Part shown: one piece after another, positions 13,033 to 36,008 of the stretch
Position numbering within the stretch: position 1 is the first letter of the stretch
Layout of the letters: every line of letters begins with the position of its first letter
From: a virus
IMG/VR virus record: IMGVR_UViG_3300046171_000110
Span: 1-64,000 of that record
Reading direction: 5' to 3' (one strand)
DNA length: 64,000 nucleotides
Made by a program: the position numbers and the translations under genes
The notes under the pieces: generated by a model
Databases searched by the model: none
Seen by the model: only the letters and a program-made list of their open reading frames with translations
What the model was told of the DNA's origin: nothing

Positions 13033-13397
13033 CTGATAAAATTGACATAGAAGACATACAGAACAATGACGACCCTTACTGGTATAATAATCTCAAAGGA
13101 ATGCTTGGTATGCTCGACCAGATTATCAGACTATACGGCAGCGATGAAGAAAAACTCAAAGAAATGGCTGGTAATTTCATTTGGAAACTGACACAGTTCA
13201 ACTTACCATTTGACACCGAGGCCAGACACGAAAATGAGTTTGAGCGATGCGGCACCTTTCCTAAGTGGGCAGGTAAACCTAGTATCAGCCACTTGATTGC
13301 TGAGGCTTACCCTAGAGAAACTAGTCAAACTCGATTGTGGGATAAGCAACGCCAATCTGTCCAAGTTGTTGACGAAGATTCTTCTCTTGAAGATTGA
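13029..13397 (+). CDS. Hypothetical protein
   Basis: ATGA overlap; the 3' end overlaps the convergent kinase-like gene. Confidence 0.65.
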   Translation: MTDKIDIEDIQNNDDPYWYNNLKGMLGMLDQIIRLYGSDEEKLKEMAGNFIWKLTQFNLPFDTEARHENEFERCGTFPKWAGKPSISHLIAEAYPRETSQTRLWDKQRQSVQVVDEDSSLED

Positions 13398-14157
13398 GTC
13401 CTCTATCCATTGGCGCTACTTGCCTTGGGGTAAAGTCCTCAGCCGATTCTATGTAAGGGTCAACAAATTCATGAAACGGCAATTCTTCTAATTTACGAGC
13501 AAACCTTTCTGTTTGTTCCTCTGGTATCTGATAATCAATGCCTAATCTTCTAGGTACGCCTCTTGCTTCTAAGAACTGGTTAAGAACCTCTTGAGGCACA
13601 TTAGTTGGATTTCTGGCACCGTAGAACATCGGGTCATGGATAACTGCTTGGCCGACCCTTGAAGGGTCATCAGTTATACTTCTAACATCCAACCCCCTAG
13701 TTGGTTGGGTCATCATCCAATTACGAGGACCAATGTCAGCCAAACCCAAACCCTCTAGCATTTGAGCCTGTGGGTAATTATCGAAGACGGCACCCGCTAG
13801 TTCTTTACCACGCTGAATATCTCCTTCACCCTCTTGTAGTGGCTCTCCTCTTTCTTGAGTCGACAAAACATTGGGAGTCCCTATACCTCTCCCTTCAAAA
13901 GTAGACAAGGCTTCTAATGGCAAGTCCATAGTTTGTCTTATTGGTCTTTGACTAGCGAATAAATTAGGGTACATAGTCGCTAATCTATTTAATAAATACA
14001 TGTCATTAAGTGTCATACCATGACCTACTTTGGTAACATCAGGGTCTTCACCCATACCGTAAACCATTTGATTCGCCCCTTCCCCAATCAATTTACCTTG
14101 ACTGGGTTGAAAGACAGACTTGAGCAACAACCATGCTTGCTCAAAAGCCCCCGACAT
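13321..14157 (-). CDS. Divergent protein-kinase-like fold protein with N-terminal AFxxAWxLLKS peptide
   Basis: IGEGANQMVY (Gly loop), VTKV (Lys), LADIGPRNW (catalytic DxxxxN) and VIHD (Mg-binding Asp), in kinase order. Confidence 0.65.
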   Translation of the reverse strand: MSGAFEQAWLLLKSVFQPSQGKLIGEGANQMVYGMGEDPDVTKVGHGMTLNDMYLLNRLATMYPNLFASQRPIRQTMDLPLEALSTFEGRGIGTPNVLSTQERGEPLQEGEGDIQRGKELAGAVFDNYPQAQMLEGLGLADIGPRNWMMTQPTRGLDVRSITDDPSRVGQAVIHDPMFYGARNPTNVPQEVLNQFLEARGVPRRLGIDYQIPEEQTERFARKLEELPFHEFVDPYIESAEDFTPRQVAPMDRGLNLQEKNLRQQLGQIGVAYPTIEFD

Positions 14158-14216
14158 AATATTCCGACTGAGCCGTTTGGCTTAGTATTTGTGCTTTGGT
14201 TTCGGCCACCAAAGTA

Positions 14217-14241
14217 CTTCTTTTATAAAGGTCCTAAGAAG
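14217..14241 (+). promoter_or_regulatory. Conserved viral promoter, copy 3
   Basis: CTTCTTTTATAAAGGTCCTAAGAAG upstream of the DUF932 operon. Confidence 0.75.
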
Positions 14242-14309
14242 ATATATGGCACCTTTCGGAAAAAACCAGCCGAATAAATAAGAAAAGTAATAAACAGAAA
14301 ACAAGAGGA

Positions 14310-15788
14310 ATGAATATGAACGAAATAGTATTGATAGGAAAAATAACAGGAAGCACACCGAACATAATTGAAATGGAGTATCCGTCTGTAGCGGGTATCA
14401 ATTCAATCAGACTACCAAGAACAATGGTCGCTCGCTTTGAGCGCATTGAAGGCGGTAGAGTAGCGGTGTTAGTAAGACCAGACGATAGCAACAAGGGACA
14501 AGAACTCAACCGTGAGTTGATTTCACAGAACGCCCCACTACATGTAACCAGTGAACACATGGACATCGTCATGGCCTTTGAGAACAATGAAAGCATCAGC
14601 GTAGATGCTGACTTCGATGACGAAGTACCAGTCTGGGCTAACCAAGATACACCTAGTGTAGAAGTTGGCGGAGAAGCAGTGGGTCCGTTTGACAACATGC
14701 TGTTCTCTGGTGGAAGAAAAGAGAAGGCGACTATGGATTGGGACTTCGACCCAGTTCGCAAGCCAGCCTTTGTGATGGTAGATGACGGTAGCCAAAGCAC
14801 AGTTGCTAGAGTCAACGGTGCGAATGGTGAGCCATCGGCCTACCACATCTTCAATCCGAACTACGCTAGTGACAGTAGACCAATGGGTGCTCACTTAGGA
14901 ACATTCAGCGCATCTTACTACCCAATGCCTTACCGTGTTGGCTATGGCCCTGTATTGGACATGGCCGCTGAGAAGGGTTGGCCAGCACAAGTAATGGCAT
15001 GGAACGAAGGAAAGCAATCGGCTCTCTTCCTTGATGTGTCTAGCAATGTTGACTGGGAGAAAGCAAGTCACAGACTAGGTACCAACTGGCAAACCAGAGG
15101 CTTTGCTAACAACGGTGACTACAGAGTGGGTATCGCAATCTACAACAGCCTAGATGGCAGTAGTGCTTACAAAGTACAAGCCATTGCTGAGCGATTGGTA
15201 TGTACCAATGGTATGGTCATGGGTGACAGAGCAAATCTAATCAGTCTCAAGCACACCAACGGTGTCTTAGGCAACTTCGATTTCAGCAAATTGGCTGACA
15301 GAATACACGAAGTGATTGCGACAGCGGCTGAGGAGATACTTGTAGCGGAATCGATGAGAGACATTCAAGTCGACAGGAACATGTTTGAGAAACTCATGAC
15401 CATTTGTGAGCGAAAGGGATTGATTACCAAGCCACAAATCAAGCGTGACGACACTGGTAATGTAGTCGGTATCAACAGAGGCCACATGTGGAGACTAATG
15501 GGACAAGGATGGACTAACCCAAGCGAGCCTTGGGTTGCTGTCAACAATCAAGACAGTGGTTCTCTACTCCATGTATATAACATCTTGACTGGTGCTATCA
15601 CACACAAGCCAACTTGGACTGATGGTAAGGACACACTGACTGGTTCTACACTCAACTTCTCTACACTAACAGACAGACTACAGACAGTTCACAAGGTACT
15701 TGGTGACATGACTCGTAAAGCAGTCAATGGTACCTCAATCGATGCGCAACTATCAAAGGTCCCAATGTTCAGCGAGATTCTATACTGA
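14310..15788 (+). CDS. DUF932/DUF945-family protein with N-terminal extension
   Basis: IYNSLDGSSA...RLVCTNGM...KHT signature. Confidence 0.8.
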   Translation: MNMNEIVLIGKITGSTPNIIEMEYPSVAGINSIRLPRTMVARFERIEGGRVAVLVRPDDSNKGQELNRELISQNAPLHVTSEHMDIVMAFENNESISVDADFDDEVPVWANQDTPSVEVGGEAVGPFDNMLFSGGRKEKATMDWDFDPVRKPAFVMVDDGSQSTVARVNGANGEPSAYHIFNPNYASDSRPMGAHLGTFSASYYPMPYRVGYGPVLDMAAEKGWPAQVMAWNEGKQSALFLDVSSNVDWEKASHRLGTNWQTRGFANNGDYRVGIAIYNSLDGSSAYKVQAIAERLVCTNGMVMGDRANLISLKHTNGVLGNFDFSKLADRIHEVIATAAEEILVAESMRDIQVDRNMFEKLMTICERKGLITKPQIKRDDTGNVVGINRGHMWRLMGQGWTNPSEPWVAVNNQDSGSLLHVYNILTGAITHKPTWTDGKDTLTGSTLNFSTLTDRLQTVHKVLGDMTRKAVNGTSIDAQLSKVPMFSEILY

Positions 15789-15800
15789 GGTGAATTGAAT

Positions 15801-15932
15801 ATGGACATGCAAGAAGTATTTGATAGAGTGAAAAAGGCCAGAAATATATTGTTGTTTGATAGAAACTTATACAAGGCACATGACTTGTTGGTTGACATAC
15901 TAAATGACATGCAAAAAGAATTGGAGGATTAA
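15801..15932 (+). CDS. Microprotein, 43 aa
   Basis: GAGGTGA SD; fills the operon gap. Confidence 0.5.
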   Translation: MDMQEVFDRVKKARNILLFDRNLYKAHDLLVDILNDMQKELED

Positions 15933-15934
15933 AC

Positions 15935-16642
15935 ATGAACGAAGAAACACCAGAAGAAGCAGTGAAAGTAATACTAGAACGAATGAGAGAGGGCGGCCTC
16001 TGGCAACCGCATGGCTTAGGATTATCCTATGTCAAAGAAGGTGACCGGACTGTCAAACTTATCTCACAAGAGAACACACCCATGAGTGCACAAGCCAGAA
16101 TCCGTATGAGGATGTTGGTTGAGAGCATTGATTGGCTTGTAGACGAGAGCATCTGTGAACTGATAGATGTAGAACATCTGTCTCTTGAAGAGAAGCACAT
16201 CAAAGAGATGATGATGCGTCAAGAGATGGCACAGGGCTGGAAGTGTTCCTGTGGTACTCCATTGTCAGCCTTCCCACTTGAGGAAGGTGTATGGAAACAC
16301 GAAGGTCAGCAAGAGATGGTTCTACCTACAGGAGAGAAAGAGATGGTTGAACAGTGGCATGTATTGATTCAGTGTCCTACTTGTGATGCCGAGATACCTA
16401 CTGACCCATATGATTACGGTCTACTGGCAGGTGATGAGTCAATGCTCGTTTACAATACTGGTAAGGTTACATACACTGCTGTCGACAGACCTGCTATCAT
16501 TGATAGGGTTGACAATAAACTAGCGGAATCGATGATAATACTGGGTACATTTTGTCCGTTCAACGGTGACCTACTACCTCCTCATGTCAGAGGGGCGGTT
16601 GTTACTTTCAGAGAAACAAAAGAAACAGGTGAAGAAGAATGA
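15935..16642 (+). CDS. Zn-ribbon-containing hypothetical protein
   Basis: WKCSCG...QCPTCD. Confidence 0.8.
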   Translation: MNEETPEEAVKVILERMREGGLWQPHGLGLSYVKEGDRTVKLISQENTPMSAQARIRMRMLVESIDWLVDESICELIDVEHLSLEEKHIKEMMMRQEMAQGWKCSCGTPLSAFPLEEGVWKHEGQQEMVLPTGEKEMVEQWHVLIQCPTCDAEIPTDPYDYGLLAGDESMLVYNTGKVTYTAVDRPAIIDRVDNKLAESMIILGTFCPFNGDLLPPHVRGAVVTFRETKETGEEE

Positions 16643-16956
16643 ATATAGAAATGATACAATTAGGGGATGAGATAATGCGAGTGTTGGTCGTTGACAAAGA
16701 CACTCCCAAACAAGCGTGTGAAAACTGCGGGCAACCTTGCTACAACCATGAACTACTAGCCAAGGAAGACTCAGACTGGTGCATGAACTGTAACGATGAA
16801 GAGTACAGGGCGGGCTGGTCTGACAGAGAGATTGGTGTCTGGTGCATAGAGCAAATGGCTAAGGGACTCGCTGTGGCAGTTGTCTTGTCACAAGAGACAT
16901 GGAGGAATAGATATGAACATATTTGTATTAGACGAAGACCCAGCGCAAGCCGCTAG
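16639..16956 (+). CDS. Zn-finger protein
   Basis: CENCGQPC...WCMNC. Confidence 0.7.
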   Translation: MNIEMIQLGDEIMRVLVVDKDTPKQACENCGQPCYNHELLAKEDSDWCMNCNDEEYRAGWSDREIGVWCIEQMAKGLAVAVVLSQETWRNRYEHICIRRRPSASR

Positions 16957-17428
16957 ATACCTAGACGATGTTAGACTACCCAAGATGTGTGTAGAGTCAG
17001 CACAGATGATGGCATCAGCCTTGCGTAGACATGGTGCTACTGATGAGCAGATGCCTCTGACTAAGAAAGGAACGCCTTACATTGGTGGTTACAAGCATCA
17101 CCCATGTACAGTATGGGCTGGCGACAGTCGCTGCAATTTTGTATGGCTTGCTCTACATGCAATCGAACAATGCAAGGAATACACTCGAAGGTTTGGTAAA
17201 GAACATGCTTGTTCTGGCCCAATCAATCACATGGCTCGAATGTATAGTACTGCTAAGTTTGAAGAGAACTACATGACACCATTTGCACAGGCTATGCCAG
17301 ACGAATACAAATCCGATGATGATGTAGTCAAAGCCTACAGGTCTTACTACAAGTCTAAGGAATACAGCAAGGGCGGGGTGCGTTATATGCGTACTGATGT
17401 TCCTACTTGGTGGGAGGTGACAGCGTGA
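16913..17428 (+). CDS. denV: Pyrimidine-dimer DNA glycosylase / T4 endonuclease V-like protein
   Basis: MNIFVLD, KMCVESAQM, HHPCTVW, EYTRRFGKEH, FAQAMPDEY and AYRSYY. Confidence 0.8.
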   Translation: MNIFVLDEDPAQAARYLDDVRLPKMCVESAQMMASALRRHGATDEQMPLTKKGTPYIGGYKHHPCTVWAGDSRCNFVWLALHAIEQCKEYTRRFGKEHACSGPINHMARMYSTAKFEENYMTPFAQAMPDEYKSDDDVVKAYRSYYKSKEYSKGGVRYMRTDVPTWWEVTA

Positions 17429-17535
17429 AAGAGTTTCCATTATCACTACTACTGTGCAAGGTGGGTAAGTGCGATGGTAAGAATGCAATTGCACCCGAAC
17501 TCCCTTGTCCTCACTGCGTGGAGGTGACGGTGTGA
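17425..17535 (+). CDS. Cys-rich microprotein, 36 aa
   Basis: GTGA overlap; GGAGGTGA SD; CxxxxC...CPHC. Confidence 0.5.
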   Translation: MKEFPLSLLLCKVGKCDGKNAIAPELPCPHCVEVTV

Positions 17536-17687
17536 ATCGCTACAGTTTACAAGATTTAGATTGGCTTGCTAGTGAGCACATGGATTGCATTAAGTGGGAC
17601 ATAGATGGTCCTGTTGAAATGCAATTAGTATTTGGTCGTGATGGTAAAATAAAGTGCGCTTGTTGTGGCGTGGAGGTGACGGAGTAA
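17532..17687 (+). CDS. Small Cys-containing protein
   Basis: GTGA overlap; GGAGGTGA SD. Confidence 0.55.
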   Translation: MNRYSLQDLDWLASEHMDCIKWDIDGPVEMQLVFGRDGKIKCACCGVEVTE

Positions 17688-17980
17688 TGGCACACATCAA
17701 ATCCATGAGTGAAACCGCTAAGAAATATATCGACATCATCATGAGTGACGGTAAGGTTCGTAATGCTGGACAGATACTTGATGAGTTATATAAAAGTAGA
17801 AAGCACAGTACTAACAGATACATACCGACGAGAGGTGAATTGAAAGACTACATGCACAGGAACTATTCAAGTGAGGTTAGGAGAGAAAGACACCCGTTGT
17901 CGCTATCTGACATGGATAGCAAAACGACGAGAGTAACATATTATTGGAGGGAAATGAATGAGAAAAATACACATAGTTGA
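17687..17980 (+). CDS. Putative winged-helix DNA-binding protein; paralogue of 10167-10454
   Basis: QILDEL, IPTRGELKDYMHRNY and VTYYW. Confidence 0.65.
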   Translation: MAHIKSMSETAKKYIDIIMSDGKVRNAGQILDELYKSRKHSTNRYIPTRGELKDYMHRNYSSEVRRERHPLSLSDMDSKTTRVTYYWREMNEKNTHS

Positions 17981-18200
17981 ATCAGCAGATGGAGAAACTG
18001 AATACGAAGTGTTCTGTAAAGAATGTCACCCAGACGGTGAAGTCTGTTGTGACAGGTGCTTACACTACAACGGCTTCGAGATACCATGCAAAGCATGTAT
18101 CGGTGAGGAAGAAGAATACGACAACCTATGCTCTGATTGTAAGGTAGAAGTGGATGGCGTTATCGCTGACAGATACTGGATAGCACATGGTGAGTTGTGA
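17958..18200 (+). CDS. Multi-CxxC Zn-finger protein
   Basis: Four CxxC motifs in 80 aa. Confidence 0.7.
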   Translation: MRKIHIVESADGETEYEVFCKECHPDGEVCCDRCLHYNGFEIPCKACIGEEEEYDNLCSDCKVEVDGVIADRYWIAHGEL

Positions 18201-18475
18201 TGGCAAGAGGATTCGAGCAAACGATTCGTTGGCGAGTGCCATGCACTTCTGTCAGATGGCGGGGCAAGGCCGAGGTAGTCATGAGTGTGGCTGACCCGAT
18301 TGGCAACAGTCCTGCTATGATTGACATCAGAACCAGAAGAACAATCGAACATCACAAAGGCGAGGGCTTTACGAAAGAGGGCGTAAGGCTAACACAGGAA
18401 GATGCAATGAGTCTAGCCAAAGCATTACTACATACCCTCGAAGAACTGAGGGAAACAGATGACAAAAATAAGTGA
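18197..18475 (+). CDS. PC4/YdbC-like ssDNA-binding protein
   Basis: IDIR...FTKEGVRLT followed by a helix, typical of the PC4 fold. Confidence 0.7.
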   Translation: MMARGFEQTIRWRVPCTSVRWRGKAEVVMSVADPIGNSPAMIDIRTRRTIEHHKGEGFTKEGVRLTQEDAMSLAKALLHTLEELRETDDKNK

Positions 18476-19370
18476 TATGATAAAACAGTTAGAAGAAAAG
18501 GCTTCTAAGTATGATGAATTGATTAGCGACATAGGTGAACTTTTATCTAAGTATAACGCTAACTCCAATCCAAAAGAAGAATTGGTCCATGTAGATGAAA
18601 AATGGATGGAGGCTTTCAACAAATGTCAAAAGTGGGAACTAGAAGATAGAGGAGAAAACTGGGTATGGAAAACGGACTTAATGAAAAAGTATGGTGAGAT
18701 AAATCATATATCCAATAGAGGTACATTAAACAATAGATTCAACAAGACTGCCAAGACTATGTTTAACCATACTAAGCAAGGAATCAAAAATTTTGTTAGA
18801 CCTAGGGGTTATGAGCCAACAAAAGATACAGAAGTAGAATCCGAAACTAATAACATCGAATACCAAAGAACTAGGCCGTTATTAAAAGCCGACATTTTAG
18901 ATTATATAACCGAAGGTCAAACTGTAGATATAAAATCTAAATCATACAAGAGTGATTTGTCAGTTCAGCGCATTGAAAAGATAGTTTCTTATTACGAAAT
19001 ACCTTTGAAATTTGCTAAACGCATTGCTAGATATTCTTCATGGGAAGATATTGCACAAAGTTATCTTGAACATGAAAGACAAGGGCATCGAATTGGGGTG
19101 TGGAAAAGTAGTCAGGAATTTGAAGACGCTAATTATTACCAATATGAATACACATGCTCTGAATCAAGTGAAGGTAGAGGTAGTAGGGTTCATAGAAAGG
19201 TTGACTCGAAAGGTCGTAAAAGGAAAAAACCTTGTGGTCAAAAGGGCATTCATACAACTAAACAACCAATAACTAGTGTTTCTAATCATCAAGCCCATTG
19301 TAAAAAGTGCGGCAACAAGCCGAGATTAAATCTCGGTAATGTAAGATTACTAGGGTGGCGAGTGGTGTGA
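18459..19370 (+). CDS. Hypothetical protein with C-terminal basic Zn-ribbon
   Basis: 303 aa; YTC, KPCG and HCKKCG; visibly AT-rich codons. Confidence 0.75.
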   Translation: MTKISDMIKQLEEKASKYDELISDIGELLSKYNANSNPKEELVHVDEKWMEAFNKCQKWELEDRGENWVWKTDLMKKYGEINHISNRGTLNNRFNKTAKTMFNHTKQGIKNFVRPRGYEPTKDTEVESETNNIEYQRTRPLLKADILDYITEGQTVDIKSKSYKSDLSVQRIEKIVSYYEIPLKFAKRIARYSSWEDIAQSYLEHERQGHRIGVWKSSQEFEDANYYQYEYTCSESSEGRGSRVHRKVDSKGRKRKKPCGQKGIHTTKQPITSVSNHQAHCKKCGNKPRLNLGNVRLLGWRVV

Positions 19371-19374
19371 TATC

Positions 19375-20829: not shown

Positions 20830-20834
20830 TTTGA

Positions 20835-20859
20835 CTTCTTTTATAAAGGTCCTAAGTAG
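20835..20859 (+). promoter_or_regulatory. Conserved viral promoter, copy 4
   Basis: CTTCTTTTATAAAGGTCCTAAGTAG about 30 nt upstream of the RFC start. Confidence 0.75.
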
Positions 20860-20874
20860 GTATGGTGTGATTCT

Positions 20875-21801: not shown

Positions 21802-21803
21802 AT

Positions 21804-24139: not shown

Positions 24140-24290
24140 GACAGACTCATGGGGGTTTATCAGATAATAACGGGGAAATTTTCCGACTCACTGAGATAGT
24201 GGCATAGGTTTTCTTTGGCATTTGCGTGTTATTTTCCTCTTCTCCATGAACCCGTTTCCCCCGCCTCTTCGAGGAAAACTTTCTGAAAAG

Positions 24291-25107: not shown

Positions 25108-25109
25108 AT

Positions 25110-25298: not shown

Positions 25299-25361
25299 AT
25301 ATGATTCGTGAATGGTTAGATTTGTTATTTAGACTGATTACCTTTGACTGGTGGGATTGAT

Positions 25362-27713: not shown

Positions 27714-27717
27714 TTAA

Positions 27718-27903
27718 ATGAGTAGAATAGAAGACGAAGTATGTAAGAAGATACAGCAAAGAGCAGAAGTAGGTAAAAGTAAGTATGGAGTTACTATGGA
27801 AACTGCGCCTCTATCTAGGCTAGAATGGCTTATTCATGCTCAAGAAGAGGCAATGGATTTGGCTGTTTATCTACAGAAATTAATTGAGGAGGAATCAGAA
27901 TGA
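27718..27903 (+). CDS. Small all-alpha NTP-pyrophosphatase (MazG-like) family protein
   Basis: R..VG..KYG.T...WL.HAQEEAMDLAVY. Confidence 0.55.
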   Translation: MSRIEDEVCKKIQQRAEVGKSKYGVTMETAPLSRLEWLIHAQEEAMDLAVYLQKLIEEESE

Positions 27904-28901: not shown

Positions 28902-29148
28902 AGACATGATAGGAAGAACAATTGAGGTGCTTTTGTCACCTCTAGTCGACAGACCAGTAGATGCTACCTTTACTAAATTAGGTAAGGATAGAAAATACTC
29001 GGTGGCTATACAGACAAGTCTGTATGAGTTTGATGAAAGTGGTGGACCAAAAGGTCCTATGTACTTGAATTTGAACAAAGACTTGCTAAGAGATGTAGAC
29101 GACCTTGTTCAGACTTTGAGAGAAATAACTGAGAAAGCAAAAGCGTGA
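28891..29148 (+). CDS. Small protein with PIP-box-like QTSLYEF
   Basis: Coupled ORF in the replication operon. Confidence 0.65.
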   Translation: MMNEDMIGRTIEVLLSPLVDRPVDATFTKLGKDRKYSVAIQTSLYEFDESGGPKGPMYLNLNKDLLRDVDDLVQTLREITEKAKA

Positions 29149-29153
29149 TTTAA

Positions 29154-30257
29154 ATGAAGATTGTATTTGATTTTCCTAGGGAGGTGATGGAACTCAGCAC
29201 CGAGAAGGGTAAGGGTTTTAGAAAACTCGTTAGGTCAAATCAAGACTTAGAGAGATACTGGGCTGGTAAGAACGGTGTATCAAATGCCTTCATGACAGTG
29301 TATGGCTATCGAGGTTTACAACAACCGCACAACAAGCGTGTTGACTTGATGACACCGATAGTCAGGCATTTCGTTATGGACTTCGACCCTAAGAATTTCA
29401 GAGAAAGGGATAGGCCAGAAGTCGAGATAGAACAGGTTTTGGAACAGACACTAAAGTTACATTACTACTTGTTAGACAAAGACATATCTCACGCCGTATG
29501 GTACAGCGGCGGTGGGTTTCATGTATGGGTCATGCTTGACAAAGAGTACATGCCCAGTGGACCTAACAGCCTATCTGCCATCAAAGAAGCAGGTATGCAG
29601 ACAGTTAACGACTGGGTGATTGAACTAGGCTTGTTCTGTTCTGACCCAGCAGTTCCGTTTGATACAAGCGGTATGATAAGGATACCCAACTCATACAATG
29701 CAAAAAGAGGACTTTGGTCTATACCTTTGTCCACTAATGATATGGAAAGGGGTATAGATTACATCATGGATAAAGCCGAAGACGCTAAGGCTGGTATGAT
29801 ATCCTATGGTAGTCAAGGGTTAGAATTGACTGTTAGAAAGATAAAGGAGAGAAGTCAAATATTCAATCCTAACTCAACACCCATTGATTTACCAACAGCG
29901 TCCATGGATGGAGTAATCATACTACCCTGTCTAAACTCAGCGGCCTGTAGGATAGGTAGTAACCCTAGTCATGATGCAAGAGTACAACTTGCCAAATTCC
30001 TATCAAAACGCTTGAGATATTTCATGCCTGCTTGGAAGTTGACTGAGGAAAACAGAGCCAAGCATACCGAAATCATTGTAGACTACATTCGCTCACTTCA
30101 ATGGGCTGACTTCAATGAAAGCACTACCCGATACCAAGTAAGTACAATCATAGGTACAGATTACCCGCAGACTTGTTCCATGCTTTGGAAGAAAGGTATG
30201 TGCCTAGGTAAGTGCAGGTACTGGGATGGAACAGGTGCAATAACGGAGGAAGAATGA
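29154..30257 (+). CDS. Archaeo-eukaryotic primase, PriS fused to the PriL C-terminal (Fe-S) domain
   Basis: MDFD, YSGGGFHVW and DTSGMIRIPNSYN; LPCL, HDAR and TRYQV..YPQTC..C...C. Confidence 0.85.
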   Translation: MKIVFDFPREVMELSTEKGKGFRKLVRSNQDLERYWAGKNGVSNAFMTVYGYRGLQQPHNKRVDLMTPIVRHFVMDFDPKNFRERDRPEVEIEQVLEQTLKLHYYLLDKDISHAVWYSGGGFHVWVMLDKEYMPSGPNSLSAIKEAGMQTVNDWVIELGLFCSDPAVPFDTSGMIRIPNSYNAKRGLWSIPLSTNDMERGIDYIMDKAEDAKAGMISYGSQGLELTVRKIKERSQIFNPNSTPIDLPTASMDGVIILPCLNSAACRIGSNPSHDARVQLAKFLSKRLRYFMPAWKLTEENRAKHTEIIVDYIRSLQWADFNESTTRYQVSTIIGTDYPQTCSMLWKKGMCLGKCRYWDGTGAITEEE

Positions 30258-30496
30258 TGACACTATACTACTGCGAAATTTGCGAGGAGCGTGTCAGAGC
30301 CACCAAAAGCATGAGAGATAGATATGAGGGTATTGATGACCCAGTAATTATCTGTCAAATATGTAGATACAAGAAACTAGTCCCAAGAAATTTACTATGT
30401 ACACGCACTATCAAAAGTGGCCGTCTATGTAACGGTGTAAGATTTGATAGAAATATAGACAAGTGTGCACTATGCAGGAGGAAAGGATATGAGTAA
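30254..30496 (+). CDS. Zn-finger protein
   Basis: CEIC, CQIC and CALC. Confidence 0.7.
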   Translation: MMTLYYCEICEERVRATKSMRDRYEGIDDPVIICQICRYKKLVPRNLLCTRTIKSGRLCNGVRFDRNIDKCALCRRKGYE

Positions 30497-31199
30497 AGCA
30501 CCTTTGATAATCGATAGTAATGAAAGAGGCCCTTTGCATGACGCAGTCATTAGGGCTGCTGAGAGGCAGGGCTTTCCTATCAAGAAAGAACACCTCCAAG
30601 GGATGGGCGACTACAAAGCAGGCAATGCTCACATAGAGTGTAAGAGTCTCTCTGACCTATTCCAATCTAGTCACAGCGGTCACTTGATGAGACAGATTGA
30701 AAACCTAGATGCAAATTGCGAAAGAGTATTCCTTGTCGTACACGGTGACATAGCCAAGTATGTAGCGCTCTCAAAGAAACAAGGTAGAAATGTATCATAT
30801 TCCAAGGTCATGAATGAACTACTAGGTACATTCGCACGAATAATGGCTGACTTCGATTGTCACATATATCGTGCTAAAGACCATTCAGAAGCGGCTATGT
30901 TCATAGCCAAACTTCACAGCAAGATGCACAAGCCTGCGAGTAGGCATGGTGCAAGAGCAGTGACAAGAGTGAGCACTAATGATGTAAGGGCTGACATGCT
31001 GATAACCATACCCGGTTTCGGCCCAGATTTGGTAGACAAGTTGCTCGCTAAGTGCGGTTCTATAGAAGAAATGCTCTTCCCAGAATCGCTCAAACAAGTG
31101 AAAGGTATGGGAACCACTTTGAGGCAGAGGTTGCTTGAAGTCTTGACCTCGGAGGAACCAGTCAAAGTCCAAAAGACATACAACAAGAGAGGGAAATAG
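30489..31199 (+). CDS. XPF/ERCC4 structure-specific endonuclease with HhH motifs
   Basis: IIDSNER, GDY and IECKSLSDL; IPGFGP and VKGMG. Confidence 0.88.
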   Translation: MSKAPLIIDSNERGPLHDAVIRAAERQGFPIKKEHLQGMGDYKAGNAHIECKSLSDLFQSSHSGHLMRQIENLDANCERVFLVVHGDIAKYVALSKKQGRNVSYSKVMNELLGTFARIMADFDCHIYRAKDHSEAAMFIAKLHSKMHKPASRHGARAVTRVSTNDVRADMLITIPGFGPDLVDKLLAKCGSIEEMLFPESLKQVKGMGTTLRQRLLEVLTSEEPVKVQKTYNKRGK

Positions 31200-31201
31200 A
31201 A

Positions 31202-32641
31202 ATGATGGAACACAGAGCAGAGAACTATGAATGCGTACACAAATATCCTATATTGAAAGGTTACCTAGACCATTTCAATCAGGTGAGTAAGAATAATGAA
31301 ATACCGGGATTACTATCCTTTTTCTTTATTCTTGGACAAGCCTCAGTAGGGTATGTAAGAATACCAGTTGGAGGGAGTAACCTCGACCCCAGAGTCAGTG
31401 TATTCTGGATTCAAGACACTAGGACTGGTAAATCAGCGTCTTATCAGATTATAGAAAAGGTGTTGAAAGCGGCTGGCCTCAAGTCAGTTGACTACAATTC
31501 TGGTAACGATGCAGCATTAGTAGGTACATTAGTGCCGGACCCCGATTCAGAAGACCCAAGAAACCCTGATATGATGGTAAGAGAAGGTATACTCGGTGGT
31601 CGTAAGGGACTTAACTTCGACGAGGGTTCTGTCTTACTAAAGGGTGGACAGCACAATGAGAACACTACTTTGTTCTTACAATCTGCGTTAAACTCAGCAG
31701 GTACTGGTCGTAATATACTAACTAAGCACATGGCAAGAGATACATTCAGTGTCAAATCCGAGGTGTCTTTGTGGATTACTACATATCCTCCAAAGGGTAT
31801 CAAAGAGCATGTACTTGACAAGGGTATCTTTCAGCGTGTGCTGACATACTGGAGGCACTGGACTCTTGACATGAAGAGAGATGTTAATCACGAACTAGCA
31901 CAGTCAGTTCACAATAAGCCTGAATTTGAGGTATCATTTGACCAAGTATCAGATTTCTTTTCTGAATTGAAAACTAAACTTAGAGACAGGGTACTGAATC
32001 TTAGCGGGTTGTCTCATTTAGAATGGACAGATATGAATGAAGACGATAAAGAAACAACAGTCATGAGTGTAATGGACAGAATGTTCAAGATAGACGCATC
32101 CTATGTACCTGCTTTGATTTCGGCCATAGACGAATACTACACACTAGTAGAACCGATGGGTCCTGAAAAGCAGGGCATCTGTGCATCTTTCATCATGGGT
32201 CTACAAAACTACACCAATGTACTAGCGCATCACATGGCTATGATAGAAGGGAGTTGGACAGTGACTGGAGACCATGTAGATATGGCTAAGGAAATATTGT
32301 TTGACTTATATCAGAACCTTATCCAATGGCTAGAGTCAGAAGTCAAAGTCGGCTCTGGCGGCAGTGAAAAGAAGAAGATGGAAGGTCACTGGAAAGACGC
32401 TTACAACCGTTGTGAAAGATTTGACTTTGATGACCATCGAGGTGTCAACTGGGTCAAGAAAGCCGAGATGTACAAGGTGTTCGGTAACCTTGCTAATCTT
32501 AGCAGTAAGGGTTCTGTTAACGGTAAGTACAACGATTACGGGGCCAAAATGTTCAAAGAAACTAGAGAAGGTGTGTCCAAATATGTCAAACTTAGAGATG
32601 ACTACATAAGTAAATCTAAGCAAGACGGGGGCAAAAAGTAA
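31202..32641 (+). CDS. Divergent MCM-like AAA+ ATPase (probable replicative helicase)
   Basis: QDTRTGKS, AALVG, LNFDEG, ITTYPP, IFQR and VTGDHVDMA; no evident N-terminal Zn/OB domain. Confidence 0.65.
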   Translation: MMEHRAENYECVHKYPILKGYLDHFNQVSKNNEIPGLLSFFFILGQASVGYVRIPVGGSNLDPRVSVFWIQDTRTGKSASYQIIEKVLKAAGLKSVDYNSGNDAALVGTLVPDPDSEDPRNPDMMVREGILGGRKGLNFDEGSVLLKGGQHNENTTLFLQSALNSAGTGRNILTKHMARDTFSVKSEVSLWITTYPPKGIKEHVLDKGIFQRVLTYWRHWTLDMKRDVNHELAQSVHNKPEFEVSFDQVSDFFSELKTKLRDRVLNLSGLSHLEWTDMNEDDKETTVMSVMDRMFKIDASYVPALISAIDEYYTLVEPMGPEKQGICASFIMGLQNYTNVLAHHMAMIEGSWTVTGDHVDMAKEILFDLYQNLIQWLESEVKVGSGGSEKKKMEGHWKDAYNRCERFDFDDHRGVNWVKKAEMYKVFGNLANLSSKGSVNGKYNDYGAKMFKETREGVSKYVKLRDDYISKSKQDGGKK

Positions 32642-32796
32642 TGTCCTCTATTTGGGATTTTGAATGCGTATTCTGTGAATCTAAGATAGGAAAAGACATA
32701 GGGGGGTACTACATAGGAATGCACTGGAAGAACCCTGTGTTGGTGTGCGACTGGTGCAAAATGTGTATGGAGGATGTTGTATGTCAAACATGTTAG
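32641..32796 (+). CDS. Zn-finger microprotein, 51 aa
   Basis: TAATG overlap; CVFC, CDWC and CQTC; not in the ORF track. Confidence 0.6.
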   Translation: MSSIWDFECVFCESKIGKDIGGYYIGMHWKNPVLVCDWCKMCMEDVVCQTC

Positions 32797-33389
32797 CCTT
32801 AGATATTGAAACAGCAAATTTCTCTCATGAGATAGGCGGCTGGGGCCACAGTCATCTGTTTGAGCCAACCGTCGTTGCTACATGGGACGGTGAAAAGGGT
32901 ACAGTTTATTCTAATGAATCAGTATCTAAATATCTACCCGAAGGTACAATTGTCAAGAAAATGCATCCTAAGATTATTGGTGATGATTTGGCAGAACATG
33001 TAGCCAAAGGCGGCATGGTACTAGGTCACAATCTGAAAGGATTTGATTTGCCAATTATCCGAGACGCTCTTGATTGCTGGACTGCCGGGGATATCATGGC
33101 GAAGTCCCAAGAGCAAGTCTTTGACACATCCGTTCTGCTGAAAAACATAGTGGGTCACGCAGTACCCCTATCAGATGCTTGCTATCACACTTTGAACAAA
33201 GGTAAACTTATGAACAGTCACGATGCCCCGATAGAGTGGCGCAAGGGTAATTACAGCAAAGTCGCTGAGTATTGCCTGAAAGACGCTGAACTTGTATACG
33301 AACTTTGGAAGCATGGAGTAGAAGAAGGTATTGTGAAAGCAAGGTGCAGAAAAACAGGAGATGTCAAAGAGTACGAGGTGGACTGGTAA
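32781..33389 (+). CDS. DEDD/RNase H-like 3'-5' exonuclease
   Basis: LDIET, GHNLKGFDLP and YCLKD. Confidence 0.85.
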   Translation: MSNMLALDIETANFSHEIGGWGHSHLFEPTVVATWDGEKGTVYSNESVSKYLPEGTIVKKMHPKIIGDDLAEHVAKGGMVLGHNLKGFDLPIIRDALDCWTAGDIMAKSQEQVFDTSVLLKNIVGHAVPLSDACYHTLNKGKLMNSHDAPIEWRKGNYSKVAEYCLKDAELVYELWKHGVEEGIVKARCRKTGDVKEYEVDW

Positions 33390-33538
33390 TGTCAATGATA
33401 GTCTGCGAAGTATGCGAAAGAGATAATTGGTCAGGGATTAGATGCTCTAAGCATAGAGTATGTACTTCCTGTATAGATTCCATATTGGATGAATATTTTG
33501 AGAGGGAAAACAATGAGCGAACAAGAACAGAGCATTAG
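33389..33538 (+). CDS. Zn-finger microprotein
   Basis: TAATG overlap; CEVC...CxxH..CTSC. Confidence 0.55.
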   Translation: MSMIVCEVCERDNWSGIRCSKHRVCTSCIDSILDEYFERENNERTRTEH

Positions 33539-35010
33539 TGCAGTAGTGCACAATATAAGAGCAGCAAAGAGAACTGTCGGTACAGTGAAAACTACACTGG
33601 GTCCGATGGGGATGGACAAAATGATGGTAGACGCTGGTGGTAATGTGATAGTTACCAATGACGGTGCTACCATATTGCAGGAGTTAGACGCAAGTCACCC
33701 TGCCGCTAAGATGGTGGTTGAGGCCGCCAACACGCAAGAAAGTATGTGCTATGATGGCACTACGAGTACAGTAGTCTTAGCAGGCGAACTACTGGGTAAC
33801 AGTGAACTCCTGTTCAACAAAGGCCTACACGCCAATGTAATCTGTAGGGGTTACAGACAGGCATCTAGGTGGACTACAGAACATCTTGAGACACTTAAGG
33901 TAGATGCCAAAGACCATCTACAGAATGTGGCTAAGACTTCAATCACAGGGAAAGCGCTTGAATCTAGCATCGAGCATGTAAGTGCTTTGTGTGTAGAAGC
34001 GGTTGAGAAAGCCGGGGGAGAGTTTGAACGAATCCGTGTTCTTTGTCAACCCGGTGGTAGCCTAGACGATTCATCATGCTTTAGTGGCGTAGTTCTCCAT
34101 AAGGAGTTCATGCTACCTGCTATGCCTATGAAACCAAACGGCAAGGCTATACTCGTCAACACTAGTCTGAGTGACAGTAAAAGCGATGACAATGTTCAAC
34201 TGAGTTTAGGCTCGGCTGCTGAATATCAACAGTACAAGCGACAGACTGGTCGTGACAACTGGGTCGAGAAGGCGCAACAAATCATCAGTATGCTACCGGA
34301 TGGCGGTATCGTGTTCGTCAGAGATAGCGTGAACGAAGTAGTTGCAGCGACACTAGCAAAACAAGGCATTTCTTTGGTTCATAGAGTTCCTGAAAGTGAC
34401 ATGACCGCTTTGTCCAAACTACTCAATACTACGATAGCCCACACTACAGAAGACCTACAAGAGGCTGTAGAGTGCGATGCAGAGTGCAAGACTATCGGTG
34501 ACATGAAGTATGTTGTAGTCAAGGGTGAAGGAGAAGTTACAACACTTATCCTAAGAGGTGCTACTAAGCAAACTCTCGATGAAACTGAGCGCGGCTTTGA
34601 AGACGCACTGGGTGTGGTCTGCTTGGCTTACACCACTCTAGGCGTAGTGCCCGGTGGAGGTTCTGCTTATCTAAATGCGGCCCTTACATCTAAGACAAAG
34701 GGCTGCGGAAGCAGGTGGTAGAGAGCAGATGGCTATCGATGCATTTGCTGAGGCTCTTGAGTCTATACCTGCCACTATTGCTGAGAATGCAGGACATGAC
34801 CCATTAGATACTGTATTGACTCTAAGAAACGAACACCAACAAGGTAACAGCGACGCTGGTCCAGATATAGAGAATGGTGGGGCTTGTTCCATGGTAGAAG
34901 CCAATGTATGGGAGCCACTTGACCTAGTCAAGCAAGCAGTACAGTCTGCTAGTGAAGTCACCATCAGCATACTAAGGATAGACGATATCGTAGTAAAGCG
35001 TGGCGAGTAG
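33513..35010 (+). CDS. Group II chaperonin (thermosome) subunit; frameshift near 34683
   Basis: TTLGPMGMDKM, TNDGATIL, DGTTS, LRG..LDETER and VPGGG; continues as AFAEALESIP..LAEN-like..EP..VK..ILRIDD in the next frame. Confidence 0.92.
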
Positions 35011-35011
35011 A

Positions 35012-35563
35012 ATGGATGATGACATCCCTACAATTGAAGTACATCTACGACATCTTAGTCCTGATGAAATGGATGATTATAGTTCTCTTAGCCATTTCAT
35101 AAAACTTTATGACCAATTCAAAGAAGAATTACACGCTGAAAACATAATAGAGAGTTTTACAATACCCGGAGAATTCTATTTCATTGTAGAGTCTGTTGAC
35201 GCACATTATGACGATGGTGAAATCGAAGGTGAAGATAATTACTTAGGGTTCATAGTGGTAACTCCTCGTCGATTTGGAGAACAATGTATAGAGTTTATTT
35301 GGATAAAGCAAGACTTCAGAAGAAAGGGTTATGCCACAGAAGCAATCAAACTTTTACAGATTGAAAAGTTAGATGTTCCTTGGTATGACTATGCTCCCAC
35401 AGAAGAATCAAAAGAGTTTTGGAAAACTACTGGACTTAAGCCTATGCTCATAAAAAATGAGAAAGGTCATTTAGAATTTTGCGAAGAAGCGAAATTAAAA
35501 AACGATTACACTAATGAAATGAGAAGACAGGCTTTTTTGAAAATGATGGAGGGGGATAAATGA
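35012..35563 (+). CDS. GNAT-family acetyltransferase
   Basis: IWIKQDFRRKGYA acetyl-CoA motif; EFWKTTG. Confidence 0.75.
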   Translation: MDDDIPTIEVHLRHLSPDEMDDYSSLSHFIKLYDQFKEELHAENIIESFTIPGEFYFIVESVDAHYDDGEIEGEDNYLGFIVVTPRRFGEQCIEFIWIKQDFRRKGYATEAIKLLQIEKLDVPWYDYAPTEESKEFWKTTGLKPMLIKNEKGHLEFCEEAKLKNDYTNEMRRQAFLKMMEGDK

Positions 35564-35655
35564 GACTATGCTCAAAAAGAGGCTGTTTCAATCTAGCCCA
35601 TCGAGGATTTAGATACTGCTTAGCGTGCCTCCGTGGAAAAGAAGAGGAAGAGTGA
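35560..35655 (+). CDS. Cys-rich microprotein, 31 aa
   Basis: MRLCSKRGC...YCLAC; last gene on the + strand. Confidence 0.5.
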   Translation: MRLCSKRGCFNLAHRGFRYCLACLRGKEEEE

Positions 35656-35663
35656 CCACTCAA

Positions 35664-36008
35664 CTATCTTCTATTCTTTATTCTACGGACTAATGCTGGG
35701 ATATCAGCGACTGGCTCCTTAACTCTATTCATGTATGTAGCAAAGCCCTTGGATTCAGGTAATTTGCCTTGCCCGCCATAGGATTGAGATTGTACCATAT
35801 GCCCATATGGTCTATACTCTTCTTCATAGAGTTGAGGAAAGTCTTCTGGTGTGATATCACCAAAAGGTCTCACTTCTGGATTAAGAAGCCTACTTTGTGC
35901 ATCATCTGATACGGGTAAAGTATTGAATCTATAAATAGGAGCAGGTAAATTCTCTTGCGCTTGCATTGATTTTAAAATGGCCCAAGCGTCATTAAATGCC
36001 CTGCCCAT
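35664..36008 (-). CDS. Hypothetical protein with N-terminal AFxxAWxILKS peptide
   Basis: MGRAFNDAWAILKS resembles MSGAFEQAWLLLKS of 13321-14157. Confidence 0.75.
   Translation of the reverse strand: MGRAFNDAWAILKSMQAQENLPAPIYRFNTLPVSDDAQSRLLNPEVRPFGDITPEDFPQLYEEEYRPYGHMVQSQSYGGQGKLPESKGFATYMNRVKEPVADIPALVRRIKNRR

What the first reader, a model, noticed from the sequence alone, without database searches (positions are those of the whole stretch)
13321..36008. Shared N-terminal AF-xx-AW-x-LLKS peptide on unrelated late-strand genes: candidate virion cargo-targeting system
Seen: the minus-strand genes 13321-14157 (MSGAFEQAWLLLKS) and 35664-36008 (MGRAFNDAWAILKS) share a 14-residue amphipathic leader and show no visible similarity after it. 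They lie about 22 kb apart, both on the structural-gene strand. Each has an AT-rich box about 25-30 nt before the ATG and a similar AAACG(G)CTYAG element. Established: T4 internal proteins use a short shared N-terminal capsid-targeting sequence that the prohead protease removes. Inference: this leader is a modular tag that loads diverse effectors into the capsid for injection at the start of infection.
Basis: partly seen in the sequence, partly recalled or inferred. Interest (0 to 1): 0.85.

Follow-up and report, generated by a model that had tools for sequence, protein, structure and literature searches.

The report
Shared address tag on magrovirus proteins
Two otherwise unrelated genes of this ocean archaeal virus (a magrovirus) begin with the same 13-residue helix; the helix heads about fifty unrelated protein families in related viruses and ends in the motif where the virus's own capsid protein seems to be cut, so it is probably a clip-off label that loads proteins (here a kinase-like enzyme) into the virus head, though neither loading nor cutting has been measured.

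Summary
Minus-strand ORFs 13321-14157 (278 aa) and 35664-36008 (114 aa) both start M-x-x-A-F-x-x-A-W-x-h-L-K-S and are alike nowhere else. This exact motif occurs only there in the 90.8-kb contig. A back-translated pattern found 95 matches in IMG/VR. Ninety-one of them sit at ORF starts, on 48 BLAST-distinct protein families, with up to 4 per locus. All 596 Gb of prokaryote genomes gave 9 hits, in unrelated bacteria. Tag-bearing records are magroviruses (MCP 63-97% identical). Complete relatives carry 7-9 tagged genes, mostly in an island at the head of the structural arm. Our contig stops exactly where that island begins in its nearest relatives.

The tag's end (h-L-K|A/S) matches h-x-K|A-D, which is over-represented in the head genes: MCP ELLK|AD, the S78 protease before and after its catalytic domain, and the 1863-aa head protein. 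In 122 diverse MCPs this site separates a variable N-terminal stretch from a conserved body. The 278-aa cargo models as an atypical kinase fold. The 114-aa cargo has no confident fold.

Best reading (about 0.55): a T4-CTS-like capsid-targeting propeptide removed by an HK97-type protease. Packaging, cleavage and injection are untested. No paper in the library mentions the tag. This scan found the same tag earlier in eight other magrovirus genomes.

The parts
13321..14157 (-). Tagged gene 1: 278-aa atypical protein-kinase-like protein, with the tag followed by a two-lobed kinase-like domain
   Evidence: ORF. The family has 53 clusters, with the tag as its most conserved part. AF2 model pLDDT 87.6. 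Fold hits are almost all kinases.
14119..14157 (-). Tag codons 1-13 (MSGAFEQAWLLLK), with the proposed cut after K13
   Evidence: A8, W9, L12 and K13 are invariant in 26 family members down to 42% identity. The helix at residues 3-12 has low pLDDT, so it is modelled with little confidence.
35664..36008 (-). Tagged gene 2: 114-aa orphan protein with no confident fold and a basic C-terminus. It is the last gene of the minus-strand structural arm.
   Evidence: ORF. Only 2 clusters of relatives. No Pfam or PHROG match. The ESM Atlas model has pTM 0.15. The slot is variable in relatives.
35970..36008 (-). Tag codons 1-13 (MGRAFNDAWAILK)
   Evidence: Of the six shared residues whose codons can vary, five differ from gene 1 at the third codon position, so the conservation is at protein level.
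14168..14178 (-). AAACGGCTCAG element, 11-21 nt before the ATG of gene 1
36016..36025 (-). AAACGCTTAG element, 8-17 nt before the ATG of gene 2. It overlaps an AGGAGTG Shine-Dalgarno-like run.

Best explanation
The 13-residue N-terminal peptide M-x-x-A-F-(E/D)-x-A-W-x-(L/I/V)-L-K is a portable tag used by one lineage of magroviruses, which are head-tailed viruses of marine Poseidoniales archaea.

Proposed mechanism, all of it inferred:
1. The amphipathic helix F5/W9/L12 docks the tagged protein onto the inside of the assembling procapsid, either on the scaffold domain fused to the protease or on the MCP interior.
2. The HK97-type (S78) prohead protease then cuts after the Lys, at h-L-K|A/S. 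This is the motif it appears to use on the MCP (ELLK34|AD) and on itself.
3. The freed cargo stays in the head and enters the cell with the DNA.

In this contig the cargo is an atypical kinase-like enzyme and a small, probably disordered protein. Close relatives have a fast-changing island of 5-7 further tagged genes just beyond the contig's end.

Shown here: the tag exists, it is selected at protein level, it is virus-specific, it sits on unrelated proteins, and its end matches a motif enriched at domain borders of the head proteins.
For: - Tag on unrelated proteins: 95 pattern matches in IMG/VR. 91 are at ORF starts and fall in 48 BLAST-distinct families. Positions the pattern did not demand are also conserved: E/D/N at position 6 in 70/91, hydrophobic at 11 in 84/91, A/S at 14 in 49/91.
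- Virus-specific: a slightly stricter pattern found 9 hits in 596 Gb of prokaryote genomes, all in unrelated bacteria, none at a recognisable relative. 23 of 30 tag-bearing records encode an MCP 63-97% identical to ours. The three large contigs I had judged chance hits do not.
- Protein-level selection: all Ala codons are used at A4, and third positions are free at F5, A8 and K13. The two copies here differ at 5 of the 6 third positions that can vary.
- Purifying selection on the tag: A8, W9, L12 and K13 are invariant in the 278-aa family, whose mean column identity is 52%.
- Cleavage-site match in this proteome: [LIVM][LIVM]K[ASE]D occurs 6 times against 1.0 expected from shuffles. Four of the six are in three adjacent head genes: MCP 32-36, protease 26-30 and 179-183 (the two borders of the S78 domain), and the 1863-aa head protein at 1714.
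- Cleavage-site conservation: the sites are invariant in close relatives and kept in 63-74% identical ones.
- MCP junction: in 122 MCP representatives at 31-57% identity, P3 is hydrophobic in 99, P1 is K/R in 108, P1' is A/S/T in 86 and P2' is D in 95. The stretch before the site varies from 16 to 108 residues.
- MCP model: AF2 gives residues 18-34 below pLDDT 50, with confidence rising from about residue 35.
- Precedents: HK97 protease cuts at K103/S104 (PMC10275583). T4 has a roughly 10-aa N-terminal CTS (PMC9958956). The first 30 residues of P1 DarB act the same way (PMC9024508).
- Position of tagged genes: they cluster co-oriented at the head of the structural arm in relatives. One sits four genes after the MCP (L012).
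Against: - There is no virion proteome, N-terminal sequence, transcript timing or structure for any magrovirus, so packaging, cutting and injection are unobserved.
- h-h-K-A/S is a short motif. The conserved K|ADAP of the MCP could be a structural feature of the N-arm rather than a cut site.
- In this contig the kinase gene lies inside the replication arm, where it might be expressed early.
- The kinase family also conserves F16-Q17-P18 just after the tag, so the N-terminus may matter to the enzyme itself.
- The T4 CTS binds a scaffold core that has no counterpart by sequence here.
- I could not model tag-capsid contacts, because only single natural chains can be folded.
Confidence: 0.55

Rival explanations
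1. The tag is a docking motif for some other common partner, not the capsid. The partner could be a viral or host hub protein such as the virus's own group II chaperonin, the clamp, RNA polymerase, or a host protease or degradation system. The tag would then co-regulate, fold or localise a set of accessory proteins inside the infected cell.
For: It is a short amphipathic helix modelled with low confidence. The virus encodes a chaperonin and replication hubs. The kinase gene here sits in the replication arm. Nothing measured ties the tag to capsids.
Against: This does not explain why the tag ends in the motif that marks the MCP junction and both borders of the protease domain. It does not explain why tagged genes cluster at the head of the structural arm. 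It does not explain internal copies that split long ORFs into modules. The tag is absent from cellular genomes, so no host-encoded protein uses it.
Confidence: 0.22
2. The tag is only a protease-removed pro-peptide that keeps potentially toxic enzymes (kinase, nuclease) inactive until late infection, and has no addressing role.
For: The end of the tag matches the presumed protease site. Cargo includes a kinase-like protein and a PD-(D/E)XK nuclease.
Against: Prohead proteases of this family are known to act inside the procapsid (established knowledge of HK97), so cutting would still imply encapsidation. The residues F5, A8 and W9 upstream of the cut are the most conserved part of the tag and are absent from the MCP and protease sites, which points to a second function beyond cleavage. 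Many cargos are small, non-enzymatic-looking proteins.
Confidence: 0.12
3. The conserved stretch is mainly a DNA-level handle for cassette exchange by recombination, and the peptide is a by-product.
For: Leu12 is CTC in 59% of leaders against 12% in the same genes. An identical 114-aa cassette sits in a genome whose flanking genes are only 61-92% identical. An earlier same-genome note reports 23-bp direct repeats encoding the two internal AWS[ST]LMK copies; I confirmed only the peptides.
Against: Third codon positions at A4, F5, A8 and K13 vary freely. The two copies in this window are only about 55% identical as DNA. Conservation follows the amino acids. The tag is kept under purifying selection within one orthologous family.
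Confidence: 0.06
4. Chance resemblance, or two diverged paralogues whose similarity survives only at the N-terminus.
For: Within this contig alone the match is short (8/15, E 0.004).
Against: Ninety-one further ORF-start copies fall in 48 families, with conservation at positions the search pattern left free. One cargo models as a kinase-like fold and the other has no confident fold.
Confidence: 0.02

Closest known systems
Capsid targeting sequence (CTS) of phage T4 internal proteins IPII/IPIII (also IPI, Alt), removed by prohead protease gp21 (Mullaney & Black 1996, as reviewed in PMC9958956)
   Same: Both are short (about 10-13 aa) N-terminal peptides shared by otherwise unrelated, non-essential, polymorphic proteins. 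Both end in the consensus that the head protease also uses on the major capsid protein. Cargo includes host-modifying enzymes (Alt in T4, a kinase-like protein here).
   Different: There is no sequence relation. The T4 tag ends in L/I-x-Glu and the protease there is gp21 (my recollection). Here the tag ends in h-L-Lys and the protease is an HK97-type S78 enzyme fused to its scaffold. The host is an archaeon. The tag sits on dozens of families and, in relatives, also inside long ORFs. Function has been tested in T4 and not here.
N-terminal packaging signal of phage P1 DarB (first 30 residues; PMC9024508)
   Same: An N-terminal signal that is sufficient to send a large effector, or a reporter, into the capsid for delivery to the next host.
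   Different: It is known for one protein, not as a motif shared across families. No link to a protease site has been reported.
HK97 head maturation: gp4 protease (S78) cutting the MCP at K103/S104 (PMC10275583). From my recollection of Duda et al. 2013, the protease's own C-terminal tail acts as its capsid-targeting signal.
   Same: Same protease family (Pfam PF04586), cleavage after Lys, and a short peptide that addresses a protein to the procapsid interior.
   Different: In HK97 the signal is C-terminal and is used only by the protease, and no cargo family is known. Here the tag is N-terminal and sits on many proteins. The resemblance of the tag to our scaffold's C-terminal Trp-containing tail is weak.
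Propeptide-bearing ejection / inner-body proteins of giant phages (phiKZ, SPN3US; PMC7411985, PMC10052503)
   Same: Many head-internal proteins are processed by the prohead protease at one consensus and then ejected into the cell.
   Different: Their consensus ends in Glu. No single short shared N-terminal tag has been described. The viruses and the protease lineage are different.
Atypical protein-kinase-like enzymes (HipA, CotH, CtkA, AceK, OspG, actin-fragmin kinase), as fold neighbours of the 278-aa cargo
   Same: Two-lobed kinase-like fold. Conserved Gly-rich loop, Lys43, Asp141...Asn146 and Asp175 occur in the usual order.
   Different: No sequence-level match to any Pfam kinase family or PDB chain. 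Z is only 5-6.7. Activity and substrate are unknown.

Membership tests
T4-type capsid targeting sequence system (functional class) | One short N-terminal peptide shared by otherwise unrelated proteins of the same virus lineage | tested here: met
   Two proteins here. 91 ORF-start copies in 48 families in IMG/VR. 7-9 N-terminal copies per complete relative.
T4-type capsid targeting sequence system (functional class) | The tag ends in the consensus that the prohead protease uses on the major capsid protein | tested here: inconclusive
   The motifs match: tag h-L-K|A/S against MCP ELLK|AD and protease NLIK|AD and RILK|ED. The motif is enriched 6 against 1.0, with 4 copies in head genes, and the MCP junction is conserved in 122 representatives. 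No cleavage has been measured for any magrovirus.
T4-type capsid targeting sequence system (functional class) | The tag is necessary and sufficient to place a protein inside the procapsid, and cargo is delivered with the DNA | not testable with these tools
   Needs virions or a heterologous assembly system. The viruses are uncultured.
T4-type capsid targeting sequence system (homology) | Sequence relation to the T4 CTS and a gp21-type protease | tested here: not met
   The protease matches Peptidase_S78 (HK97 type), E 1.5e-10. The tag consensus bears no resemblance to the Glu-ending T4 sites. The relation is therefore analogous, not homologous.
Caudovirus prohead serine protease S78 (partner enzyme, contig 69827-71236) | Pfam PF04586 match above the gathering score, adjacent to the MCP | tested here: met
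   41.9 bits against a cut-off of 21. PHROG head maturation protease hits. The gene lies directly upstream of the MCP.
Protein kinase-like superfamily (278-aa cargo) | Two-lobed kinase fold | tested here: met
   AF2 pLDDT 87.6, pTM 0.87. The Foldseek hits with E <= 0.001 are kinase-fold proteins, prob up to 0.99. In an exhaustive VIA search 48 of the top 50 rows are kinase-like, but Z is only 4.5-6.7.
Protein kinase-like superfamily (278-aa cargo) | Catalytic motifs: Gly-rich loop, ATP-binding Lys, catalytic Asp...Asn, metal-binding Asp | tested here: met
   Invariant G27, N29, Q30, V32, K43, D141, N146 and D175 in 26 sequences, in that order. The assignment of roles comes from my reading of the motifs, not from a structure superposition.
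Protein kinase-like superfamily (278-aa cargo) | Sequence-level membership of a curated kinase family | tested here: not met
   No Pfam kinase hit for any of 26 members at E <= 5. No PDB sequence hit with the family profile at E <= 10.
Secretion signal / membrane anchor | A hydrophobic core of 7 or more residues, or a transmembrane helix, after the N-terminus | tested here: not met
   The tag has only 3-4 hydrophobic residues spaced as one helix face. None of the 48 cargo representatives has a TM-like run.

The most novel reading that the evidence does not exclude
Magroviruses, among the most abundant archaeal viruses in the surface ocean, run a general cargo-loading system. Any protein given a 13-residue tag is taken into the procapsid, released by the HK97-type protease and injected with the genome. 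The virus thus carries a rapidly exchanged arsenal (kinase-like enzymes, nucleases, small basic or disordered proteins) that acts before any viral gene is expressed. This would be the first such system in an archaeal virus, and a ready-made handle for packaging foreign proteins in HK97-type capsids.
Probability: 0.45. Interest if true: 0.8.

Novelty: new variant of a known kind. Interest (0 to 1): 0.66.

Why it matters
If the tag does what its anatomy suggests, it identifies at a stroke the proteins that magroviruses deliver into Poseidoniales cells at the moment of infection. It also gives a sequence rule for finding such effectors in uncultured archaeal viruses. The cargo is hypervariable between genomes that are otherwise 96-98% identical. 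That is the pattern expected of an arms race with host defences, about which almost nothing is known for marine archaea. The kinase-like cargo would be a candidate virion-borne host-takeover enzyme. Mechanistically, it would show that the T4 solution (address peptide plus protease site in one short tag) arose independently with an HK97-type protease. The tag could also be tried as a packaging handle. None of the magrovirus papers I opened mentions an N-terminal motif.

Tried and rejected
- Pfam and PHROGs on both tagged proteins and their neighbours gave nothing for the two proteins.
- Pfam on 46 cargo representatives left most blank. Single hits were one PD-(D/E)XK/Cas4-like nuclease, one DUF6321 and one GemA.
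- The kinase family profile against PDB sequences, and a loose Pfam scan of all 26 members, gave no kinase hit. Kinase status therefore rests on fold and motifs.
- The 114-aa protein has only two clusters of relatives. The ESM Atlas gave no usable feature hit and a poor model, so I ran no further search on it.
- The MCP against PDB sequences gave only a weak hit to one phage MCP (6j3q). No archaeal virus capsid with a known mature N-terminus was found.
- Literature searches for a measured cleavage site in halovirus MCPs found none.
I therefore could not fetch the 101-kb contig that carries identical copies of both proteins, and used IMG/VR relatives instead.
- Leaderless-promoter idea: most tagged genes in relatives have Shine-Dalgarno-like runs, and many have no AT box. 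I dropped the idea of a shared dedicated promoter.
- Resemblance between the tag and the scaffold's C-terminal tail (suggested in earlier notes): here it amounts to a Trp with Leu three to six residues later. That is too weak to count.
- Signal peptide or membrane anchor: rejected.
- I first read the 94-aa gene in the same slot of a 98%-identical genome as 'unrelated cargo, same tag'. BLASTP shows similarity through residue 41, so it is a diverged allele, and I withdrew that argument.


Full report
**1. The observation**

Table-11 ORF listing gives a 278-aa minus-strand ORF at 13321-14157 and a 114-aa minus-strand ORF at 35664-36008. They begin MSGAFEQAWLLLKS and MGRAFNDAWAILKS. BLASTP of the two aligns residues 1-15 only (8/15 identical, E 0.004) and nothing further.

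Six-frame regex scans find AF..AW and AW.[LIVM]LK only at these two places, each at residue 4 of an ORF. This holds for the window and for the whole 90,793-base contig, which was laid in the Python box. As DNA the two tag-coding stretches are only about 55% identical. At five of the six shared residues whose codons can vary, the third positions differ.

The AT-rich stretches (14181-14190 and 36031-40) and the AAACG(G)CTYAG element (14168-14178 and 36016-36025) are present. The element has three copies in the contig against about 0.4 that I estimate from its information content.

**2. What virus this is**

The + strand block at roughly 14-35.5 kb encodes a clamp-loader ATPase, family B DNA polymerase, PD-(D/E)XK nuclease, archaeal-type primase subunit and a group II chaperonin.

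The minus-strand block runs from the contig end down to 35.6 kb. It encodes, in contig coordinates:
- terminase, 81105-82586
- portal, 77992-79809
- a 1863-aa protein, 71250-76841
- an S78 prohead protease with a long C-terminal scaffold-like part, 69827-71236
- an HK97-type MCP, 68645-69814
- tail genes, including a 4411-aa ORF

This is the magrovirus layout described by Philosof et al. (PMC5434244). The 114-aa gene is the last gene of the structural arm. The 278-aa gene is a lone reversed gene inside the replication arm.

**3. The tag is general**

A back-translated pattern for M-x-x-A-F-x-x-A-W-x-x-L-K (about 33 bits; I expected roughly a dozen chance hits) found 95 matches in 82 IMG/VR stretches.
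- 91 of them lie within 90 codons of an upstream stop, on ORFs of 50 aa or more.
- Positions the pattern left free are conserved: E/D/N at position 6 in 70/91, L/I/V/F at 11 in 84/91, A/S at 14 in 49/91. Conservation collapses after position 14.
- All-against-all BLASTP of residues 16 onward splits the 91 into 48 groups. The largest (20 members) is the family of the 278-aa protein.
- Pfam recognises almost none of the groups.
- None of the 48 representatives has a transmembrane-like run, and their pI values are spread.

A slightly stricter pattern run over 596 Gb of bacterial and archaeal genomes gave 9 hits, all in unrelated bacteria. That is the order expected by chance. The tag is therefore viral, not a host motif.

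Of 30 tag-bearing IMG/VR records, 23 encode an MCP 63-97% identical to ours. The three large phage contigs whose 'tags' looked like chance hits (Phe at position 12, or far from an ORF start) do not. The other four without an MCP match are fragments.

**4. How many per genome, and where**

I fetched three relatives that CheckV rates 100% complete (G001-G003, 103-116 kb; MCP 77-85% identical). I searched them with a leader HMM and a core regex.
- They carry 7-9 N-terminally tagged genes each, including shorter forms such as M-N-P-F-x-x-A-W-x-L-L-K and M-R-A-F-D-A-A-W.
- Most are packed into an island of 3.5-6 kb.
- Synteny puts that island, co-oriented, at the head of the structural arm.

Our contig ends 240 nt upstream of the first conserved gene of that arm. 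In five close relatives (80-92% DNA identity) the alignment to our contig stops at its very last base. The 9.7 kb beyond that point holds 5-7 tagged genes in four of them. Identical copies of both our proteins occur on a 101,465-base contig.

So this contig is almost certainly truncated at the island. Its two tagged genes are the ones that lie outside the island.

One more protein of this contig lies outside the window, at 85784-87610 (608 aa). It holds two internal tag-like copies (…AWSSLMK|Q and …AWSTLMK|S) that bracket a 228-residue module (following a same-genome note). Relatives have similar internal copies in long ORFs.

**5. Selection acts on the peptide**

In 85 distinct leaders, all four Ala codons occur at A4, and third positions are mixed at F5, A8 and K13. 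The exception is Leu12, which is CTC in 59% against 12% in the rest of the same genes. This is unexplained.

Within the 278-aa family (53 clusters; 26 aligned, down to 42% identity), A8, W9, L12 and K13 are invariant while mean column identity is 52%.

**6. The link to the head protease**

The MCP reads …SGSELLK34|ADAPLLSTT…. The protease reads …SINLIK|ADNDL… just before the S78 domain and …FRILK|EDTD… at its end. The 1863-aa head protein reads …GALLK|ADVQ… near its C-terminus.
- Over the contig's 87 ORFs, [LIVM][LIVM]K[ASE]D occurs 6 times against 1.0 ± 1.0 in shuffles. Four of the six are in these three adjacent head genes.
- The MCP site is invariant in about 80 close relatives. FRILKED is invariant in 56 protease sequences.
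- In MCPs only 63-74% identical the site is kept (D-L-L-K|A-D, D-I-L-K|A-D). Their proteases have F-I-L-K|S/A or L-L-L-K|G before the catalytic domain.
- An exhaustive HMMER search gave 503 MCP relatives. In 122 near-full-length representatives (31-57% identity), P3 is hydrophobic in 99, P1 is K in 93 and R in 15, P1' is A/S/T in 86, P2' is D in 95 and P4' is P in 85. The part before the site ranges from 16 to 108 residues and is poorly conserved.
- An AF2 model of the MCP (pLDDT 82.6) has a short helix at 9-17, residues 18-34 below pLDDT 50, and rising confidence from about residue 35.

This is what a propeptide junction looks like. HK97, the type member of this protease family, cuts its MCP at K103/S104 (PMC10275583). 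The tag ends h-L-K followed by A or S, most often A-D, A-L or S. It therefore carries the same site, preceded by tag-specific residues (F5, A8, W9) that the MCP and protease sites lack.

**7. The two cargos**

*278-aa protein.* With the 26-sequence alignment the AF2 model has pLDDT 87.6 and pTM 0.87. The tag forms a helix (3-12) of low confidence.
- The Foldseek hits with E of 0.001 or better are kinase-fold proteins: AceK, PRPK, WaaP, Rio2, VRK2, CK1, and OspG just below.
- VIA re-alignment gives Z 5-6.6, led by CtkA, AceK and OspG.
- In an exhaustive VIA search of 48,161 chains, 48 of the top 50 rows are kinase-like, with HipA, CotH, CtkA and actin-fragmin kinase at the top (Z up to 6.7).
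- The Z values are middling, but the list is uniform.
- The invariant columns (G27, N29, Q30, V32; K43; D141…N146; D175) fall in the order Gly-loop, Lys, catalytic loop, metal-binding Asp.
- No curated sequence family claims the protein.

I call it an atypical kinase-like protein with about 0.7 confidence.

*114-aa protein.* It has no family and a very poor Atlas model (pTM 0.15), and it ends in a basic stretch. In a genome 97-99% identical in the flanking genes, the same slot holds a 94-aa tagged protein that is similar only through residue 41. Another genome whose flanks are 61-92% identical holds a 100% identical copy. The slot is therefore variable, and the cassette moves between genomes.

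**8. Interpretation**

The facts to be explained are these:
- a portable N-terminal amphipathic helix;
- selection at protein level;
- restriction to one virus lineage;
- presence on dozens of unrelated and fast-changing proteins;
- an ending in the motif that marks the propeptide junction of the MCP and the borders of the protease domain;
- genes grouped with the morphogenetic arm.

The most economical reading is a capsid-targeting propeptide of the T4 CTS kind (PMC9958956; P1 DarB in PMC9024508). Here it would be served by an HK97-type protease that cuts after Lys.

I put this at about 0.55, because every functional step is inferred. The rivals are given with their tests in the rival explanations: a docking motif for another hub, a pro-peptide without addressing, a DNA-level recombination handle, and chance.

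**9. Novelty**

The three magrovirus papers I opened do not contain 'N-terminal' or 'kinase'. The system is analogous, not homologous, to the T4 CTS, so I class it as a new variant of a known kind.

This scan has already met the same tag in eight other magrovirus genomes, and follow-up agents reached the same reading. Those are unchecked AI notes, not independent evidence. Two same-genome notes (the kinase reading, and h-x-K motifs at head-protein borders) agree with what I found before reading them.

What this window adds:
- a conserved tagged kinase-like family;
- a scan showing the tag is absent from cellular genomes;
- the MCP junction statistics over 122 diverse MCPs;
- the finding that the contig breaks exactly at the cargo island.

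Noticed in passing
window 6-116: Six copies of GTCTAAACTG (one with a mismatch) are packed into the first 116 bases of the contig. Only two other one-mismatch copies occur in the remaining 64 kb. This may be an iteron-like array or the repeat that broke the assembly.
   Followed up: partly
contig end (90793), outside the window; loci L197, L198, L200, L201, L215: Alignment of five close relatives to this contig stops at its last base. The next 9.7 kb holds 5-7 tagged genes in four of them. The contig is truncated at a hypervariable cargo island.
   Followed up: yes
same contig, 85784-87610 (outside the window): A 608-aa low-complexity ORF has two internal tag-like copies (AWSSLMK|Q at about 137 and AWSTLMK|S at about 365). 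They bracket a 228-residue module that contains an H-E-x-x-x-H. It looks like a cassette polyprotein.
   Followed up: partly
tag codon 12 in 85 IMG/VR leaders: Leu12 is encoded by CTC in 59% of leaders against 12% CTC among Leu codons in the rest of the same genes. Ala8 is never GCC. Other synonymous sites are free. Unexplained.
   Followed up: partly
window 13321-14157, residues 141-146: The clade containing this protein has D-I-G-P-R-N in the catalytic loop, where more distant family members have D-x-K-P-x-N. The basic residue has moved from +2 to +4, as in the D-L-A-A-R-N loop of tyrosine kinases (the comparison is from my own knowledge).
   Followed up: no
window 14194-14214 (minus strand): A perfect 7-bp hairpin (CTTTGGT…ACCAAAG, 7-nt loop) lies between a TTTATAAAAG box (14221-14230) and the kinase-like gene's start, in the 152-nt divergent intergenic region.
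   Followed up: no
window 35000-35563 (+) and 35664-36008 (-); loci L028, L071: The GNAT acetyltransferase gene next to the 114-aa gene has no counterpart in G001-G003, L028 or L071. The slot where the two arms converge is a variable insertion site.
   Followed up: partly
locus L012 1920-2177 (-): An 86-aa tagged gene is inserted between the homologues of contig genes 65343-66923 and 66968-67252, four genes downstream of the MCP. Our contig has only a 45-nt gap there.
   Followed up: no
window 39493-52728 (-): A 4411-aa ORF sits in the tail block. It is 41-59% identical over parts to relatives. The neighbouring 858-aa protein (58912-61488) has a Laminin_G_3/ConA-like domain. These are probably host-recognition proteins.
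   Followed up: no
same contig, 71250-76841 (outside the window): The 1863-aa protein between portal and protease has a sub-threshold ATP-dependent DNA ligase domain hit (residues 1438-1533, E 1.5e-4) and an ALLK|AD site at 1714.
   Followed up: no
scaffold part of protease homologues, loci L219-L222: A G-N-x-x-V-I-K-(Q/G/E) motif recurs once to twice in the scaffold region. These may be further protease sites. The C-terminal tails share a Trp-containing helix (D-G-W-x-A-x-E-D-L, M-S-W-D-E-V-H-R-L).
   Followed up: no
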